Shown in pieces: positions 755-14,860 of a stretch of DNA of 39,525 nt (position 1 is the first letter of the stretch; each line of letters begins with the position of its first letter). The notes below the pieces were generated by a model. It was not told the origin of the DNA. It searched no databases and saw only the letters and a program-made list of their open reading frames with translations. This stretch comes from an uncultured Mucilaginibacter sp. Lineage in GTDB: Bacteria; Bacteroidota; Bacteroidia; Sphingobacteriales; Sphingobacteriaceae. The stretch lies in NCBI GenBank assembly GCA_903885865.1, contig CAISKH010000570.1, forward strand, positions 1 to 39,525. Direction: 5' to 3'. Both the position numbers and the translations under genes were made by a program.

Positions 755-1242
755 GTTTTTATACAGACGTAAGAGATTTCCATCAAGCATTCGGTCAGCG
801 TATTGGTGAGAAGCCAGAGTTTCCTAACGATGATGAACGTAAGCTTAGAGTTAAGCTTCTTAAAGAAGAAGTATGGGAATATATGGATGGAGAATCTGCC
901 AATGATCTCGTTGAAGTTGCCGATGCACTTGCTGACATTATCTATATTGCTTGTGGCACTGCCGTTTCTTACGGCATTCCTTTGGACGATGTTTTTGCTG
1001 AGGTCCATCGAAGCAATATGGCAAAGCTTGTCGATGGCAAGGTAATTCGTCGTGAGGATGGTAAGGTACAGAAACCAGAAGGATGGACTGCTCCTGACAT
1101 TAGAAGCATTTTAGATAAGGCACACACAAAATATATTTGTAAAGTAGCCATTAATATCTATCGGTTTTATTTTCCTGTTAAAACCTGTCCATATAAAATA
1201 ATTGCTACTGGTTTTGTCGAGGTTAATAAACTGCGTGGTTGA
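751..1242 (+). CDS. MazG-like / PRA-PH-like nucleoside triphosphate pyrophosphohydrolase (phage type); C-terminus probably chimeric after ~1150
   Basis: VRDFHQAFGQ, LLKEEVWE, EVADALADIIY, EVHRSNMAKL, RREDGKVQKPEGWTAPDI motifs. Residues after ~1150 are the antisense of the beta-barrel gene. Confidence 0.85.
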   Translation: MSFYTDVRDFHQAFGQRIGEKPEFPNDDERKLRVKLLKEEVWEYMDGESANDLVEVADALADIIYIACGTAVSYGIPLDDVFAEVHRSNMAKLVDGKVIRREDGKVQKPEGWTAPDIRSILDKAHTKYICKVAINIYRFYFPVKTCPYKIIATGFVEVNKLRG

Positions 1243-3393
1243 TTTGCCGGTTGACGTATTGGTTATGGTATTATTAGCTATTCCGGCCGTTGTAAAGGCA
1301 TAGCTACCGCTTACATTAAAGCTTTGCCCGCTTACAACACCGTAAGTATTATAGGATACGTTAAAACGATTGGTAAACGATGCCTTAAGGTCGGGGTTGC
1401 CCAGGGTGATAAACAGCGGGTCGGTATTTACCCTTATGGGCTGTATTTGCTCAAGGGAAGGCTGGGTAGTGCGCCCACTATACTCGGCCTTGAACGATTT
1501 TTGGAGCGAAAATTTATATTGGTAACTTGCCTGAGGCGCCCAGTTAATAAAGCTGCGTTTGTAAACAATGCCGGTATATTCGTCTACCTGTTTAAAATCT
1601 ACTGCAAAGGCTTTTGTGCCGAAATTCACCAGCGCCTTACCCTTTTTATAATTAAACACCGCGCCCAACTGGTTGCTAAGCTGGTTAAAATTATAATTGT
1701 TGCTAAAGGTACTGTTGAAAACATCATACTGGCCTGTTGGCCCTTTGTCATATGACCGTGTATCGGCATGCGCATTGTTTACGCCAAGTCCGTAATTGAA
1801 AATTATCGCAAATGTTTTTGACAGCGGCTCGCTATAAGTAGCGTTGCTGTTGATAACCATATGGGTAGCGGCGGTGGTTTTTAGCTGGTGTACTTCAACT
1901 ATACTGTCGAGAGCCCCAAGAGGGTTAAAAAAATCAGTTTCAGAATTGACGTAGCCGATTGAGTGGTTCTCGTCATACGATGTGCCCAGGTTGAGTGAAA
2001 AAGTACGCCCCGGCGTTTTAAACTTATGGGTGTAAAGGCCGTTTACATTTACCAGCTTCTGGTCGTTATTGTTGGTATTGGTGCGGTTGCTGCGGTTAAG
2101 CACTACATTGCTGCCGTTGTCGGTCGATGTTATATAGTTATCATCGGTTTTTGAGTTTCTCAGTGTAGCATCGGCGCCGATTTTAAAGTTCGATGAAGTA
2201 TCGGGCCTGAATTGGTACATGGCATCCAGCTTTTGCCTGAAGGAAGACTTGTCATAAGTTTGCGCCGAATGGTTATTGATAATGCCCGATGTTAAGCTCT
2301 GCTGCGATGTAGTAGTGGTTACCCCGGTAACATCCATCGATCTTAACTTGTAGTTGGTATTTATGGATGCTTTATCGGCATTCATCTTGCTGTCAAAATG
2401 GATGCCTGCATTACGCGCCCATGGCTGGCCGGCGCCATAATATTTTCCATCCCATCCATCATCCTCATCGCTATATGATCTGAATGTTTCGTCGTCCATC
2501 TGGCCGATATTGGTCATCCCGAGTTTGTCTTCATCGTCTTCCCCCAGGCCTATCTTACCATTGTTAGCAACGCTGCCATAAACCGACAGCTTATATTTCG
2601 CCTTAAATTTGTTGAATATAGCCTGGCTCTGGTAATAGCCATTGGTGCCAATGCCGCCTTCCAGTTTCCCGAAGACGCCGCTTTTTTTATCTTCTTTCAG
2701 CTTTATGTTAATGGTCCTGGTTTTTTCGCCGTCATCAATACCTGTAAAGGCCGCCTGGTCGCTTTTTTTATCATAGAGTTGTACCGATTCCACCATATCC
2801 GCCCGCAGGTTTTTGGTAACCAGTGTAGGGTCATCGCCAAAAAACTCTTCGCCATCAACCAATACTTTACCCACTTTTACACCGTTGGCGGTAATTTTTC
2901 CGTCCTTATCAATGGTCATGCCGGGCAGTTGTTTCAGCAGGTCCTCTACCTTATCGTTAGGTTGTATTACATAAGCTTTGGGGTTAAACTCGGTGGTATC
3001 GCCTTTAATTTTTATTGCGCGTATCTCGCCCTTGATCATTACCTCCATCAATAGCTTTGATTTCAGCTGCATATTCACATTGCCAAAATCGTGTGTAGGG
3101 TGAGTGGCATCCAGTGTAAACTCCTCTACATAATCCACATAATCGGGATAGCTTACCAATAATAAAAATTTCCCCTGCGGCAGGCCGTTAATGGCAAACA
3201 GACCATTATCAATAGCGTACGTATACTTATACATAATAGAATCTTTGGCATTTAATATGCAAATGGTAGTATTGGGCAGTTTGACCCTGGAGGCAGTATC
3301 GGTCACCATGCCTTTTACGGCATAGTTATTTTGGGCTGATAGTGACAAAGAACATAAGCAAATGGCCAGTATTGCCAGAATTGTGATCTTCAT
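1111..3393 (-). CDS. Outer-membrane beta-barrel (TonB-dependent-receptor-like) protein with carboxypeptidase-regulatory-like N-domain, 3'-truncated
   Basis: Signal peptide; KGDTTEFN, EDLLKQLPG, LVDGEEFFGDDP, GNPDLKASF motifs of this Bacteroidota family. Ends in an atypical FTNIFCVCLI read from phage-like DNA and lacks the final barrel strands and terminal Phe. Confidence 0.85.
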   Translation of the reverse strand: MKITILAILAICLCSLSLSAQNNYAVKGMVTDTASRVKLPNTTICILNAKDSIMYKYTYAIDNGLFAINGLPQGKFLLLVSYPDYVDYVEEFTLDATHPTHDFGNVNMQLKSKLLMEVMIKGEIRAIKIKGDTTEFNPKAYVIQPNDKVEDLLKQLPGMTIDKDGKITANGVKVGKVLVDGEEFFGDDPTLVTKNLRADMVESVQLYDKKSDQAAFTGIDDGEKTRTINIKLKEDKKSGVFGKLEGGIGTNGYYQSQAIFNKFKAKYKLSVYGSVANNGKIGLGEDDEDKLGMTNIGQMDDETFRSYSDEDDGWDGKYYGAGQPWARNAGIHFDSKMNADKASINTNYKLRSMDVTGVTTTTSQQSLTSGIINNHSAQTYDKSSFRQKLDAMYQFRPDTSSNFKIGADATLRNSKTDDNYITSTDNGSNVVLNRSNRTNTNNNDQKLVNVNGLYTHKFKTPGRTFSLNLGTSYDENHSIGYVNSETDFFNPLGALDSIVEVHQLKTTAATHMVINSNATYSEPLSKTFAIIFNYGLGVNNAHADTRSYDKGPTGQYDVFNSTFSNNYNFNQLSNQLGAVFNYKKGKALVNFGTKAFAVDFKQVDEYTGIVYKRSFINWAPQASYQYKFSLQKSFKAEYSGRTTQPSLEQIQPIRVNTDPLFITLGNPDLKASFTNRFNVSYNTYGVVSGQSFNVSGSYAFTTAGIANNTITNTSTGKSTTQFINLDKTSSNYFIWTGFNRKIKPIDINGYFTNIFCVCLI

Positions 3394-11137: not shown

Positions 11138-12586
11138 ATGATAAATATTTCTAAACGGTATGGCGTAGTTATTTTAATAACTATACTTTCCATCCAAAAC
11201 TCATTTAGCCAAACCCATAGCCGGGGTTTGGATTTTGACGATGCCGCATACGCTACGGCCCCAAAAAAAGCTAAACTTACCCGTGCACTTGATGTGCTGC
11301 CCGCGAAAGCATCGATAAAGCAGTTTGCGCCTTACCCTAAAACCCAGGACCAATATGGCACTTGCGCCGCGTGGGCATCGGCTTATTGCGGCCGCACTAT
11401 TGTTGACGCCATAAAAAACAACTGGACAGACCGTAATCAAATCACTAAAAATGCGTATTCCCCGGCCTTTTTGTTCCGCTTGTTAAGGCCCGATGATCCC
11501 GCCTGCGTGGGGGGCTCAAATATTGAGTTTGCTTTTGAGCTGATGAAGAATAAGGGAAGCATACCTTTTACCAGCCTGCCTTTGTTATGCGTACCAACCG
11601 TCGCCCCGGCCCAACTGGATATGGCATCATCTGCTAAAATTAAAGATTACGCGCGCTTGTTCGATGTTTATTCGGGCGACAATATTAAGGTTCAGGCGGT
11701 AAAAAAATCTATTTCCGAAAAAAAGCCGGTGGTAATAGGAATGCTTTGCCCGCCATCATTTGACTATGCGAGAGATTGCTGGCAACCTACCGAGCAGCCC
11801 CTAACCACTTATGGCGGCCACGCGATGTGTATTGTGGGATATGACGATGAGCAATATGGCGGCGCTTTTGAAGTTCAAAACAGCTGGGGGACCAACTGGG
11901 GCAACCAGGGCTATATCTGGATAAAATATACCGATATGGCCAAATTTGTAAAATACGCTTATGAGTTTGTTGATCTCCCGGACCCCAAACCCAATGTGCC
12001 CGACCTCTCGGGTTCATTAAGGCTGGCGCTTTCAACCGGGTTGGATATGCCTGTAAACCTCCTCGTTTCAACCCGGGGGCTTAAAGTTGTTGCCGCCGAT
12101 AAACCAATAAACAAAACACCCGAACCGTTAACCATTTATCAAACAGCAAGCACCTATACTTCGGGCACCAATTTCCGTATTTATATCACTAATGATGCCC
12201 CGGCCTATGTATATGCCATCAGTTCTGACCTGACCAACGCGGTTACCAAAATATTTCCGTATGCGGATGGGATAAGCGCCGTATTAAATTATAAAAAGAA
12301 TGATGTTGCCCTACCCGATGAGGACCATTACATACAGTTTGATAATGTGGCCGGAAAGGATTTTTTATGTGTACTGTATAGCAAAAACGAACTGAATATT
12401 AATGACCTGATAGCCAAAATAGGCACACAAACCGGTACGTTTAATGAACGGGTATTTGGCGCACTGGGCGAGCGTATGGTTGACCCGAAAAATGTTAAAT
12501 TTGATAGTGACAAGATCAAATTTTCGGGCAGCAGCGCTGATAAGCAGGATGTAGTGGCCCTGATGGTTGAACTTGATCATAAATAA
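11138..12586 (+). CDS. Secreted papain-like cysteine peptidase (C1A) with C-terminal DUF4384-like domain
   Basis: Signal peptide; Q70..C76 (QDQYGTCAAW), H228 (GGHAMCIVGY), N248 (QNSWGTNWG); C-terminal FRIYIT..AYVYAI..KIFP pattern. Confidence 0.9.
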   Translation: MINISKRYGVVILITILSIQNSFSQTHSRGLDFDDAAYATAPKKAKLTRALDVLPAKASIKQFAPYPKTQDQYGTCAAWASAYCGRTIVDAIKNNWTDRNQITKNAYSPAFLFRLLRPDDPACVGGSNIEFAFELMKNKGSIPFTSLPLLCVPTVAPAQLDMASSAKIKDYARLFDVYSGDNIKVQAVKKSISEKKPVVIGMLCPPSFDYARDCWQPTEQPLTTYGGHAMCIVGYDDEQYGGAFEVQNSWGTNWGNQGYIWIKYTDMAKFVKYAYEFVDLPDPKPNVPDLSGSLRLALSTGLDMPVNLLVSTRGLKVVAADKPINKTPEPLTIYQTASTYTSGTNFRIYITNDAPAYVYAISSDLTNAVTKIFPYADGISAVLNYKKNDVALPDEDHYIQFDNVAGKDFLCVLYSKNELNINDLIAKIGTQTGTFNERVFGALGERMVDPKNVKFDSDKIKFSGSSADKQDVVALMVELDHK

Positions 12587-12592
12587 GCGAAT

Positions 12593-14860
12593 ATGGATAA
12601 GATTTTTAAAAGGGCGGCTTTTATTTTGATGTGTTTACTGCTTTGCGGCATCGTTAAAGCGCAAAGTTTAATTTATTACAATGCTTTTAGCAAAGGCGAG
12701 TCTACATGGGGAAACTATGACGATGCCACAAGCAATGCCCGCATAGAAGGGGGTAAATACATACTTACACATAAACTGCATACCTCAACGGTTATGGCAC
12801 CCGAAATAAAGGTGGATTATAGCCGTAATTTTGCCATACAAACCGTTTTAACCCCCGTGGGCGTACAAAGCCGTTACGCTGCAGGGTTAACTTTTTTTGG
12901 GAAGGATTATAGTAATATATATTACTTCGGCATCGCCGCGGGCCAGTTCCTGGTAGGTAAGTTTGAAAACGGGGGCAATGTTACCATCGTAAACTGGACA
13001 CCCTCAACGGCCATTGCAACCGGTAACGCGGCCAATAAACTGCGTGTTGAAAAACTGGAGAGCAGCGTGAAGTTTTATATAAACGACATACTGGTTAAAG
13101 AGATACCCCCGCTGCTGCCTTTTGGAAATAGATTCGGCCCGGTAGTTATGGAGCAGCAGTCGGTAGCGTTTGATTATTTGAAACTGGCTTATTTAGCCGA
13201 TCCTTCTGTGCAAACAACAACTGTTGAGCCTATAAATAAATCGATCATTGAAACGGCTTACCATACCGATTTTGCTAAAGATGACGCGAACCAATGGGTT
13301 TTAGCGCCTGCGGATTCGTTAACAACTGCAATTACCGACAACCATTTTAAAATGGTGCGCATAGCCCGGTCAGGATATAACGTTTCGGTAACAGCGCCCG
13401 CGCTAAAGGTTGATATGAAGCGCGATTACCTGTTAGAAACCGAAGCAACGCATTATTCGGGCGTGCAAAACTTTGGTTACGGACTGGAGTTTGCAGGCGA
13501 CGAAAACCGAGTTTATCATTTCTGGATAGGCTGCACCGGCTATTATTATATCGGGTATAATGATAAGACAGGGTTTAATACCATCCTCGCCTGGACATCG
13601 TCTGACGCGATAAAAAAAGGCGACCTGGTAAAAAACAAACTGGGCATTCTGCATAAAAACGGACAGCTCAATTTTTATATTAACGACCAGCTGGTAACCT
13701 CGCACCCCGAGATAGAGTTTACCGGGTATAGGTTTGGTTTTGGCGTTTGTGCCAATCAAAACATAGGGTTTAAATATTTGACGTTTGGCTATACCGATAA
13801 AGCGCCTGCTCCCCAGGTTATAACCCAAAATGATGTTACCCCGCCCGAAATATATATTACCTCGCCAGAGGTTACGCGGGGGTTAAAAGTAGTGCAAAAC
13901 AGTGATGTGTTGCACGTTGCCGGTGTTGCCAAAGATGCCAGCGGCATATTTTCGGTTGTGGTAAACGGCATACAGGCTGCGGTTGATAAGGCAGGTAATT
14001 TTACCGTTGATGTGCCTATGGCCATAGGCGATAACCCGCTGATGGTGGTGGCTACCGATATGAATATGAATAAGGGCACTTACAACTTTCATATCGTTCG
14101 TAATAACATATCGGCAGCCACGCAGGCAACGGTACAACAAAGCGCGGCGCAGGGGAAATACTATGCCCTGTTAATTGGCGTACAGGATTATAAGGACCAA
14201 TCTATACCAAGTTTGGAGGGCCCTGTTGGCGACGCCAATACCTTGTTGAAATCGCTTACCAGTAACTATACCTTTGCTCCCGAAAATGTAACTGCCTTAA
14301 ATAATGCTACACGCGAGCAGTTTTTCCACGCGCTGGATGATCTGTCGAACAAAATTAAACCCGAAGATAACCTGCTGATATTTTATGCCGGGCACGGCTA
14401 CTATGATGAGGCGCATTTGCAGGGCTACTGGTACCCCGCCGACGCGGTGCTTAAACGCAGGGATACCTGGATATCAAACGCCGACCTGATAGACTATATA
14501 ACCGCCATAAAATCAAAACATACGCTATTAATAAGCGATGCTTGTTTTTCGGGGAGCATATTTAAAACCAGGGCCATTGATATGGCACCCAAGGATATAC
14601 AGGAACTGTATAAACTGCCCAGCCGCAAAGCCATGACCAGCGGCGCCATGAAGGAAGTACCCGATAAAAGCGTTTTTATAGAATACCTGGTAAAGCGCCT
14701 TAACCAAAATACAGATAACTTTTTACCTGCCGAACAATTATTTGCCAGCTTTAAAGCCGCGGTAATAAACAACAGCCCCAACGGCCAGGTGCCCCAATTT
14801 GGCGAGATCAGGGAGGCCGGTGATGAGGGAGGGGATTTTATTTTTATAAAGAAGCAGTAG
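12593..14860 (+). CDS. Secreted caspase-like (C14B ortho/metacaspase-type) peptidase with two ConA-like beta-sandwich domains and an Ig-like domain
   Basis: Signal peptide; duplicated WT.S.AI..G...NKL....FYIND.LV domains; DVTPPEIYITSP Ig-like domain; YALLIG, FYAGHG (H601), ISDACFSG (C651), terminal GGDFIF. Confidence 0.9.
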   Translation: MDKIFKRAAFILMCLLLCGIVKAQSLIYYNAFSKGESTWGNYDDATSNARIEGGKYILTHKLHTSTVMAPEIKVDYSRNFAIQTVLTPVGVQSRYAAGLTFFGKDYSNIYYFGIAAGQFLVGKFENGGNVTIVNWTPSTAIATGNAANKLRVEKLESSVKFYINDILVKEIPPLLPFGNRFGPVVMEQQSVAFDYLKLAYLADPSVQTTTVEPINKSIIETAYHTDFAKDDANQWVLAPADSLTTAITDNHFKMVRIARSGYNVSVTAPALKVDMKRDYLLETEATHYSGVQNFGYGLEFAGDENRVYHFWIGCTGYYYIGYNDKTGFNTILAWTSSDAIKKGDLVKNKLGILHKNGQLNFYINDQLVTSHPEIEFTGYRFGFGVCANQNIGFKYLTFGYTDKAPAPQVITQNDVTPPEIYITSPEVTRGLKVVQNSDVLHVAGVAKDASGIFSVVVNGIQAAVDKAGNFTVDVPMAIGDNPLMVVATDMNMNKGTYNFHIVRNNISAATQATVQQSAAQGKYYALLIGVQDYKDQSIPSLEGPVGDANTLLKSLTSNYTFAPENVTALNNATREQFFHALDDLSNKIKPEDNLLIFYAGHGYYDEAHLQGYWYPADAVLKRRDTWISNADLIDYITAIKSKHTLLISDACFSGSIFKTRAIDMAPKDIQELYKLPSRKAMTSGAMKEVPDKSVFIEYLVKRLNQNTDNFLPAEQLFASFKAAVINNSPNGQVPQFGEIREAGDEGGDFIFIKKQ

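What the first reader, a model, noticed from the sequence alone, without database searches (positions are those of the whole stretch)
11138..14860. Candidate exported proteolytic cascade: papain-like and caspase-like proteases sharing an Arg cleavage code
Seen: two co-oriented genes 6 bp apart, both with signal peptides and intact catalytic residues. These unrelated proteins share an identical heptapeptide, TRGLKVV (papain T312, 12071-12091; caspase T428, 13874-13894). It is encoded with different synonymous codons (acc cgg ggg ctt aaa gtt gtt vs acg cgg ggg tta aaa gta gtg), which suggests protein-level selection rather than recent DNA duplication. Related sites are SRGLD just after the papain signal peptide (S28), TRALD (T48) just before the 'LP' that marks mature papain-fold N-termini, and TRAID (T659) 8 residues after the caspase catalytic Cys. 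Consensus: [ST]R|[GA][LI][DK]. Known: C14B meta/orthocaspases are P1-Arg/Lys specific, orthocaspases self-activate by cutting after Arg in the post-Cys linker, and C1A enzymes need pro-peptide removal. Inference: the caspase self-processes, sheds its sensor domains, then matures the papain and releases its DUF4384-like domain. This would be an extracytoplasmic signalling or defence cascade.
Basis: partly seen in the sequence, partly recalled or inferred. Interest (0 to 1): 0.85.

Follow-up and report, generated by a model that had tools for sequence, protein, structure and literature searches.

The report
Exported protease pair shares cutting code
Two neighbouring genes for bacterial proteases that are predicted to be exported carry the same short arginine motif in floppy loops, and the motif changes in step in both proteins across related bacteria, so one enzyme likely cuts and switches on the other, although no cutting has been shown.

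Summary
A C1A papain-like protease with a DUF4384 domain and a C14 caspase-like protease lie 6 bp apart and share TRGLKVV, found in 2 of 3748 genome ORFs. Four of the five sites are conserved: papain R49 (98%) and R313 (88%), caspase R429 and R660 (100%). R29 is not (36%).

The pair recurs: 100 of 128 decidable homologous loci have a caspase within 4 kb. The motif varies in step between partners (RGL, RNL and R[DN]W lineages; own partner best of 720 pairings). Where the papain junction has Lys, the caspase linker usually does too (10 of 11), and a predicted S1-pocket residue is Ser (10 of 10 versus 6 of 71). These Lys switches are too few for a significant tree-corrected test (p = 0.125).

Best reading: the caspase's acidic pocket reads these sites, likely self-cleaves, and likely removes the papain pro-segment at R49. 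Corrections: R313 and R429 lie in loops inside beta-sandwich domains, so domain release is doubtful, and R313 is optional. No defence role is shown. It works like the published LcCaspase–LcHydrolase module, but appears exported and has a protease as effector.

The parts
11138..12586 (+). C1A papain-like protease precursor with C-terminal DUF4384-like domain (482 aa, P0001)
   Evidence: Pfam PF00112 E 9.7e-12, PF14326 E 5.2e-6 at 26.9 bits against a cut-off of 27; model matches xylellain 3ois, Z 28.4, rmsd 2.6 over 245 residues
11138..11209 (+). Predicted signal peptide of the papain (residues 1-24, before Q25)
   Evidence: read from the sequence; Q25 nearly invariant; Gln after the signal peptide fits the Bacteroidetes Q-rule (PMC5837995, start of abstract in search listing); no predictor run
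11210..11293 (+). Short pro-segment (about residues 25-52) with conserved G-hydrophobic-x-F-D-D-x-x-Y
   Evidence: model residues from about 20-24 align with proenzyme chains, mature enzymes align from 52-55; conservation
11219..11233 (+). SRGLD (S28-D32): chance match, the Arg is not conserved; rejected as a site
   Evidence: R29 in 43 of 120 and 34 of 302
11279..11293 (+). TRALD (T48-D52): candidate maturation site R49 at the pro/mature junction
   Evidence: R in 118 of 120 close homologues; R 104, K 25, neither 18 of 147 distant representatives
11345..11881 (+). Papain catalytic residues Q70 (11345), C76 (11363), H228 (11819), N248 (11879)
   Evidence: invariant columns
11999..12583 (+). 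DUF4384-like beta-sandwich domain (residues 288-482)
   Evidence: Atlas search with homologue P0013 gives DUF4384 clusters
12071..12127 (+). Optional loop insert (residues 312-330) beginning TRGLKVV (12071-12091); candidate site R313
   Evidence: pLDDT under 50 for 312-330; R in 105 of 120; long insert in 56 of 147 representatives, 35 of them with a basic motif against 14.3 in shuffles
12593..14860 (+). Caspase-like C14 protease (755 aa, P0002): predicted signal peptide, two lectin-like beta-sandwiches, Ig-like domain, catalytic domain
12665..13795 (+). Two tandem concanavalin/galectin-like beta-sandwich domains (about residues 25-401); candidate sensor or anchor, exchanged for TPR, WD40, MORN, WG and other domains in relatives
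   Evidence: Foldseek hits to BT3469, galectins and laminin G domains with low whole-chain TM; relatives' domains
13832..14107 (+). Ig-like domain (PF09136, residues 414-505)
   Evidence: Pfam E 2.3e-7, over cut-off
13874..13894 (+). TRGLKVV (T428-V434) in the loop after the first Ig strand; candidate site R429
   Evidence: R in 120 of 120; pLDDT under 50 for 429-431
14150..14857 (+). C14 catalytic domain: H601 (14393), C651 (14543); predicted S1 residues D547 (14231), A599 (14387), D649 (14537), D691 (14663)
   Evidence: invariant in 88 rows; aligns with metacaspase-4 around the first Asp, His and Asp-x-Cys; S1 residues of TbMCA2 and MALT1 from PMC4357240 passages; equivalence of A599 and D691 is my inference from motif position
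14567..14581 (+). TRAID (T659-D663) in the post-cysteine loop; candidate self-cleavage site R660
   Evidence: R in 120 of 120; pLDDT under 50 for 658-670

Best explanation
The two genes form a conserved pair of likely exported proteases in which the caspase-like enzyme likely recognises a basic-small-hydrophobic motif with its acidic pocket, likely cuts itself, and likely activates the papain-like enzyme by cutting off its short pro-segment at R49. Shown: the pair, the four conserved arginines, their co-variation between partners, the acidic pocket residues. Inferred: (1) both proteins reach the periplasm (signal peptides; no type IX secretion tail in Pfam or NCBIfam scans); (2) a ligand bound by the exchangeable N-terminal domains clusters or activates the caspase; (3) it cuts at R660 in the post-cysteine loop and at R429 in the Ig loop; (4) it cuts the papain at R49, freeing the active site; (5) the optional TRGLKVV loop at R313 copies the caspase's own Ig-loop site and is a second cut or a recruiting site that nicks rather than releases the DUF4384 domain. 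The trigger and the papain's targets are unknown; envelope damage or attack is a guess.
For: Linkage: 100 of 128 decidable papain loci have a caspase within 4 kb, 85 of the 100 within 300 bp, with caspases from two deep subfamilies. Conservation: R49 118/120, R313 105/120, R429 120/120, R660 120/120. Exposure: R313, R429 and R660 are in segments with pLDDT under 50. R49 lies 3-6 residues before where mature papain-fold enzymes begin to align. Motif enrichment: 45 of 66 caspases have RG-hydrophobic in the 130 residues before the catalytic domain, against 2.9% of background windows and 4 of 54 windows further upstream, in two different Ig loops. Cross-protein co-variation: 8 of 9 papains with an RNL insert have RNL in the neighbouring caspase, against 1 of 92 without; over six lineages the true papain-caspase pairing ranks first of 720. 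R/K co-switch: junction versus caspase post-Cys loop RR 69, KK 10, RK 4, KR 1; junction versus insert RR 21, KK 9, RK 1, KR 2; Lys types fall in at least four places on the tree and are not Arg-poor overall (0.31 versus 0.35). Reader: caspase position 599 is Ser in 10 of 10 Lys-junction loci from three lineages and 6 of 71 Arg-junction loci; no papain catalytic-domain column tracks the switch in 4 of 5 lineages. Precedents: LcCaspase cleaves LcHydrolase at two putative R|G sites; Csx29 cuts Csx30 in a beta-hairpin of its C-terminal domain, and one group of such domains is DUF4384; MaOC1 self-activates after Arg219.
Against: No cleavage data. Tree-corrected tests are not significant: junction versus second site, 5 independent pairs, p 0.125; Ser599 versus Lys loop, 7 pairs, p 0.25; caspase linkage versus junction Arg, 3 pairs, no trend, because 21 of the 28 unlinked papains are one subfamily. 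12 of 96 caspase-linked papains have no basic residue in the junction window, and four linked loci have Arg at the junction with only Lys in the caspase loop. The six lineages and the motif pattern were chosen after seeing the data, lineage B's own partner is not its best match, and within-lineage pairing is not significant (p 0.18, 0.11). A second column (715) passes the same filter as 599, and Ser599 also occurs with Arg loops (10 of 21). Papain R347 is also less kept in Lys types (6 of 20 versus 84 of 96). R49 is in a well-modelled stretch (block mean pLDDT 83), so it may be structural. 21 of 56 long inserts lack the motif. 4 of 10 genomes with unlinked, Arg-less papains do encode a C14 protein elsewhere.
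Confidence: 0.6

Rival explanations
1. The caspase's active site binds the motifs, but the loops act as docking, bait or pseudo-substrate segments, or as activating peptides once cut, that hold the two proteins together or regulate the caspase. The papain is a regulator or cargo and matures by itself.
For: R313 and R429 sit inside folded domains, where a cut releases nothing directly. The match between partners runs up to about 10 residues on the prime side in the RNL lineage, longer than cleavage usually needs (my judgement). Several RNL-lineage papains have the insert but no junction Arg. The insert is optional and changes state about 20 times on the tree.
Against: R49 sits exactly at the pro/mature boundary, has no extended prime-side match, and still switches R/K with the caspase loop. 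A characterised caspase-zymogen pair is cut at such sites.
Confidence: 0.2
2. The papain is the protease that reads the code: it matures itself at R49 and clips the caspase, so the cascade runs the other way.
For: C1A enzymes commonly self-process (PMC10380794 passage) and often accept Arg at P1 (recalled). Co-variation between the two proteins does not by itself give direction.
Against: The caspase has the acidic pocket and a pocket-lining position that tracks R/K; no papain catalytic-domain column does. Small polar P2 residues (T, S) are not the bulky hydrophobic P2 typical of papain substrates (recalled). MaOC1 self-cleaves at an Arg without a papain.
Confidence: 0.08
3. The sites are independent structural features or copied DNA: R49 and R660 are conserved for folding, and TRGLKVV was copied between adjacent genes and kept alike by gene conversion.
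For: Identical codons at identical residues between partners are 76 of 175, against 60.8 expected from codon usage (z 2.5, with two near-duplicate loci included). R49 is well modelled.
Against: 57% of those codons differ and the flanks are unrelated. The motif sits in two different Ig loops and, in other caspases, just after the signal peptide. The junction shares almost no sequence with the caspase loop yet switches R/K with it. DNA copying could explain the origin of an insert but not these patterns.
Confidence: 0.07
4. A third Arg/Lys-specific protease (gingipain- or clostripain-like) processes both proteins.
For: Bacteroidota have secreted clan CD proteases that activate other proteins, such as fragipain (search listing and start of abstracts).
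Against: The motif follows the locus lineage and the linked caspase's pocket. No recurrent third protease was seen among 800 neighbouring ORFs of 103 loci (only chosen clusters were annotated). I did not search the genome for C11 or C25 proteases.
Confidence: 0.05

Closest known systems
LcCaspase-LcHydrolase of Lysobacter capsici (bioRxiv 10.1101/2025.11.14.688446; abstract, outline and sections 4 and 7 read)
   Same: Adjacent caspase-like protease and enzyme zymogen; two cuts at putative conserved Arg followed by a small residue (R|G); protease fused to exchangeable sensor domains.
   Different: There the effector is an alpha/beta-hydrolase whose fragments kill E. coli, within antiviral defence modules. 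Here both proteins have signal peptides, the effector is a C1A protease, the caspase carries the same site in its own Ig loop, and the code varies between lineages (RG, RN, RD, KG). C1A is not among the effector families named in section 4.
Csx29-Csx30 of type III-E CRISPR (bioRxiv 10.1101/2022.08.17.504292; passages read)
   Same: A caspase-like protease cuts its partner in a beta-hairpin of a C-terminal domain; one group of Csx30 C-terminal domains is DUF4384, noted as often fused to proteases.
   Different: CHAT-family protease, P1 Met, RNA-triggered, anti-sigma substrate, CRISPR-linked. The passages do not say that the cut protein's own domain is of the DUF4384 group.
Orthocaspase MaOC1, metacaspases (TbMCA2, AtMC4) and paracaspase MALT1, family C14B (PMC7475262, PMC6426788, PMC8283722, PMC4357240; passages read)
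   Same: His-Cys dyad, acidic S1 pocket, Arg/Lys preference, self-cleavage after an Arg in MaOC1.
   Different: No exported partner protease is described in the passages read. The window protein misses the PF00656 cut-off on its own.
Xylellain (PDB 3ois) and other C1A proenzymes
   Same: Papain fold with a short N-terminal pro-segment (Z 28.4, rmsd 2.6, 245 residues).
   Different: Single-domain, with no DUF4384. Its activation paper was not available; only the title was seen in a reference list.
Fragipain and gingipains (C11, C25) of Bacteroidota (search listing only)
   Same: Secreted clan CD proteases that activate other secreted proteins by cleavage.
   Different: Different families. They serve several unlinked substrates rather than one co-evolving neighbour (partly recalled).

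Membership tests
C14B caspase-like proteases (ortho/meta/paracaspases) | His-Cys dyad in GHG and D-x-C motifs | tested here: met
   H601 and C651 invariant in 88 rows and in 116 domains
C14B caspase-like proteases (ortho/meta/paracaspases) | Caspase fold | tested here: met
   Foldseek MALT1 3v4o E 4.8e-9, TM by target 0.70; metacaspases 7qp0, 8a53; phmmer metacaspase-4 E 7e-4
C14B caspase-like proteases (ortho/meta/paracaspases) | Acidic S1 pocket residues | tested here: met
   D547, D649, D691 invariant; reference residues from PMC4357240; position equivalence inferred from sequence
C14B caspase-like proteases (ortho/meta/paracaspases) | Pfam PF00656 above cut-off | tested here: inconclusive
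   no hit for P0002 itself; close homologues, such as P0122 at 90% over residues 400-755, carry it
C14B caspase-like proteases (ortho/meta/paracaspases) | Cleavage after Arg/Lys and self-processing | not testable with these tools
   R660 conserved and in a low-confidence loop; no activity data
EACC1-associated caspase (NF047832) | Score above the curated cut-off of 140 bits | tested here: not met
   73.1 bits
C1A papain family | Gln, Cys, His, Asn catalytic set and papain fold | tested here: met
C1A papain family | N-terminal pro-segment | tested here: met
   residues about 20-52 align with proenzyme chains; that it blocks the active site was not checked, as no coordinates were available
C1A papain family | Activation by removal of the pro-segment | not testable with these tools
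   needs an assay
Protease-effector antiviral modules (10.1101/2025.11.14.688446) | Protease encoded next to its effector, conserved as a pair | tested here: met
   100 of 128 decidable loci
Protease-effector antiviral modules (10.1101/2025.11.14.688446) | Conserved basic cleavage sites in the effector | tested here: met
   R49 and R313 conserved; as sites of cleavage they are inferred
Protease-effector antiviral modules (10.1101/2025.11.14.688446) | Effector is one of the described families (MBL, alpha/beta-hydrolase, Pepco, EACC1, gasdermin, Csx30 and others) | tested here: not met
   the effector is C1A plus DUF4384; list
Protease-effector antiviral modules (10.1101/2025.11.14.688446) | Phage sensor domain or defence-island setting | tested here: inconclusive
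   N-terminal domains are lectin-like, TPR, WD40, MORN, WG; recurrent neighbours look housekeeping or signalling; PADLOC gives only a generic caspase model and nothing for the papain
Protease-effector antiviral modules (10.1101/2025.11.14.688446) | Cleaved effector kills the cell or blocks phage | not testable with these tools
   needs an assay
Csx29-Csx30 (type III-E CRISPR) | CHAT protease | tested here: not met
   no PF12770 match in the assembly, 84% complete; the protease is C14-like

The most novel reading that the evidence does not exclude
A two-step protease cascade in the bacterial envelope, caspase then papain, recalling caspase and cathepsin relays of eukaryotes, with a private lineage-specific recognition code. 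The caspase's S1 pocket and prime-side preference co-evolve with short motifs that are repeatedly grafted into loops of its own Ig domain and of the partner's DUF4384 domain, so that each caspase activates only its own papain. DUF4384 would then be a general carrier for caspase target loops.
Probability: 0.35. Interest if true: 0.85.

Novelty: new variant of a known kind. Interest (0 to 1): 0.7.

Why it matters
Many bacterial caspase homologues have likely signal peptides (PMC3501461 passages), and I found no described substrate for an exported one in ten searches of the held library. This pair gives a named candidate substrate, exact candidate cut positions, and natural Arg and Lys variants with a matching pocket change, so the specificity and the direction of the cascade can be tested with two purified proteins. 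It also offers a role for DUF4384 and would extend protease-gated zymogen modules from the cytoplasm to the envelope.

Tried and rejected
R29 (SRGLD) as a site: rejected. Clean release of the DUF4384 or sensor domains: not supported by loop positions. Complex prediction of caspase 414-755 with papain 25-482: no verdict, score 0.02, no evidence either way. RNA runs: none was listed. Promoter and terminator scans: no more hits than in shuffles. Other substrates in the genome: [ST]RG-hydrophobic-x-[VI][VI] occurs in one other ORF, which looks cytoplasmic; no second C14, C1A or DUF4384 protein was found in this 84%-complete assembly. Motif among neighbouring proteins with signal-like N-termini: 5 of 197 against 17 of 603 others, no enrichment. 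Caspase linkage versus junction Arg as co-evolution: 67 of 78 linked against 1 of 17 unlinked, but only 3 independent pairs and no trend; 29 loci with short flanks were left out. D691E as Lys determinant: E in 9 of 11 Lys loci but also 9 of 72 Arg loci, and not in L065 by the alignment; rejected. A first caspase-typing rule was noisy because of unrelated KG words, so the simpler post-Cys rule was used. The second order-level genome search repeated nearly the same sample. Literature: ten searches found no paper on a caspase plus C1A-DUF4384 pair; most subscription journals and all supplements were not seen. The 2025 preprint was reached through an earlier finding, not through these searches, so they can miss relevant work.


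Full report
OBSERVATION. The two ORFs, their 6-bp spacing, the five motif matches and the quoted codons are as described. TRGLKVV occurs in 2 of 3748 ORFs of the assembly. A shared word of seven or more residues arose in 3 of 5000 shuffles and 9 of 5000 random ORF pairs. The nearest named relatives are Mucilaginibacter and other Bacteroidota. The first protein is a C1A protease with a DUF4384-like tail. The second has two lectin-like beta-sandwiches, an Ig-like domain (PF09136) and a C14-like catalytic domain that misses the Pfam cut-off but has the dyad and the fold. Signal peptides were judged by eye and by a crude rule only.

WHICH SITES HOLD. In 120 close homologues each, papain R49 is kept in 118, R313 in 105 and R29 in 43; caspase R429 and R660 are kept in 120. 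In 302 wider papain sequences the R29 position is mostly Thr and only the next Gly is fixed, so SRGLD is part of a structural pro-segment motif and not a site. In AlphaFold models (mean pLDDT 88 and 86) the segments 312-330, 429-431 and 658-670 are under pLDDT 50, while R49 lies in a well-modelled stretch. The papain's residues from about 20 to 52 align with pro-regions of solved proenzymes, and mature enzymes align from 52-55, so R49 is at the pro/mature boundary. R313 follows the first two strands of the DUF4384-like domain and R429 follows the first strand of the Ig domain.

THE PAIR. Of 159 distinct full-length papain homologues in fetched loci, 100 have a caspase within 4 kb (85 within 300 bp), 28 do not, and 31 have flanks too short to decide. 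21 of the 28 unlinked ones are one subfamily with an acidic junction, mostly without the Arg. That contrast is one evolutionary event and carries no statistical weight (3 independent pairs, no trend); 4 of 10 such genomes have a C14 gene elsewhere. Linked caspases come from two deep subfamilies and carry varied N- or C-terminal domains: TPR, WD40, MORN, WG, FGE-sulfatase. Full or partial family matches were in 34 of 401 genomes sampled from the phylum.

THE MOTIF IS MOBILE AND CO-VARIES. 45 of 66 caspases have RG-hydrophobic within 130 residues before the catalytic domain, against 2.9% of background windows and 4 of 54 windows further upstream. It occupies either of two Ig loops, about 77 or about 40-50 residues before the domain. 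The papain insert is optional: 56 of 147 representatives at 50% identity have a long insert at this hairpin, 35 of those carry a basic motif against 14.3 in shuffled inserts, and the state changes about 20 times on the tree. Where both partners have the motif they match. The window lineage has RGLKVV in both; a second lineage has RNL in both (8 of 9 papains with RNL have a caspase with RNL, against 1 of 92 without); a third has R[DN]W in both. Over six lineages the true pairing ranks first of 720 permutations. I chose the lineages and the pattern after seeing the data, and pairing within lineages is not significant (p 0.18 and 0.11). Codons are identical at 76 of 175 shared residues, against 60.8 expected. 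This small excess leaves room for DNA copying at the origin of inserts, but most codons and all flanks differ.

ARG-TO-LYS SWITCHES. Of 96 papains whose nearest caspase had a readable post-cysteine loop, 69 were Arg/Arg, 10 Lys/Lys, 4 Arg/Lys and 1 Lys/Arg, and 12 had no basic residue at the junction. Within papains, junction and insert were Arg/Arg 21, Lys/Lys 9 and mixed 3. Lys types appear in at least four places on a FastTree tree, including L065 nested among Arg sisters. Only 5 independent pairs lie on well-supported branches (3.9 same way, 0.1 opposite; p 0.125). Lys types are not Arg-poor overall, though one other papain Arg (R347) is less kept in them.

WHICH ENZYME READS THE CODE. The caspase has D547, D649 and D691 invariant, placed like the S1 acids of TbMCA2 and MALT1 (PMC4357240 passages). 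Position 599, two before the catalytic His and by my inference the Ser156 position of TbMCA2, is Ser in 10 of 10 Lys-junction loci from three lineages and in 6 of 71 Arg-junction loci; one other column (715) passes the same filter. Across all 116 caspase domains Ser goes with Lys loops in 11 and Arg loops in 10, and Ala with Lys in 4 and Arg in 85 (7 independent pairs, p 0.25). No column of the papain catalytic domain tracks the switch in 4 of 5 lineages. This favours the caspase as reader but does not prove it.

MECHANISM. Most likely (0.6) the caspase, once triggered through its exchangeable domains, cuts its own loops at R660 and R429 and removes the papain's pro-segment at R49, with R313 as an optional second cut or recruiting loop. 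All cutting steps are inferred. The main rival (0.2) is that the loops dock in or regulate the caspase rather than activate the papain. The reverse direction (0.08), structural or copied motifs (0.07) and a third protease (0.05) fit less well. The biological role is open. Recurrent neighbours are mostly housekeeping genes, with CHASE2 or adenylate-cyclase genes in some lineages, and nothing marks these loci as defence islands.

KNOWN SYSTEMS. It works like LcCaspase-LcHydrolase, where a bacterial caspase cleaves an adjacent zymogen at two putative R|G sites, and like Csx29-Csx30, cut in a hairpin of a C-terminal domain with DUF4384 among the variants. It is a member of neither: the effector is a C1A protease, both proteins look exported, and there is no CHAT protease. 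MaOC1 gives the precedent for self-cleavage after Arg. Ten searches of the held library found no description of this pair; subscription journals and supplements were not seen. Earlier notes of this scan describe similar Arg motifs around exported caspases in other genomes; they are unchecked leads and not independent support. One doubted the papain step because its papain lacked an RG tag. My spirochaete-like loci show a junction Arg with N, S or D after it that switches to Lys with the caspase in L065, so a strict RG tag is too narrow a test.

VERDICT. A real, conserved and testable feature; a new variant of protease-zymogen modules. Interest 0.7.

Noticed in passing
window:25-1242: Two phage-like ORFs at the contig start (PHROG 624 DNA-binding protein, E 3.8e-46; PHROG 671 nucleotide pyrophosphohydrolase, E 2.4e-43) run head-on into the minus-strand ORF 1111-3393, whose C-terminus looks cut short. 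Possibly a prophage edge or a chimeric join. Only two short matches in the phage collection.
   Followed up: partly
L049, L125, L047, L075, L123, L167: Some loci have two to four caspase paralogues in tandem beside one papain, most with the same Ig-loop motif but different N-terminal domains, as if several sensors feed one effector.
   Followed up: partly
L066:6177-8141, L012:2686-3888: CHASE2 proteins, one fused to an adenylate/guanylate cyclase, with small unannotated proteins that look secreted, recur next to the pair in several lineages, hinting at a link to transmembrane signalling.
   Followed up: partly
P0283, P0299, P0302: Papain-DUF4384 fused to Ig-like (PF09136) domains and a DUF900 alpha/beta-hydrolase, notable because an alpha/beta-hydrolase is the caspase-activated zymogen in the Lysobacter module.
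   Followed up: no
L138-L153, L159, L161, L189-L198: A distinct 515-545 aa C1A-DUF4384 subfamily, nearly always without a neighbouring caspase, has an acidic junction usually followed by K-N-P-L-P; its activation route is unexplained.
   Followed up: partly
L130:10315-11142: A stand-alone DUF4384 protein directly upstream of the papain.
   Followed up: no
window:8218-10915: FIST-domain protein and hybrid histidine kinase divergent from the pair; same arrangement in the 94% relative L001 but not in most others, so probably unrelated.
   Followed up: partly
L084, L105, L162, L166, L183: In caspases with an N-terminal catalytic domain the motif often sits just after the signal peptide, suggesting a very short pro-peptide.
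   Followed up: partly
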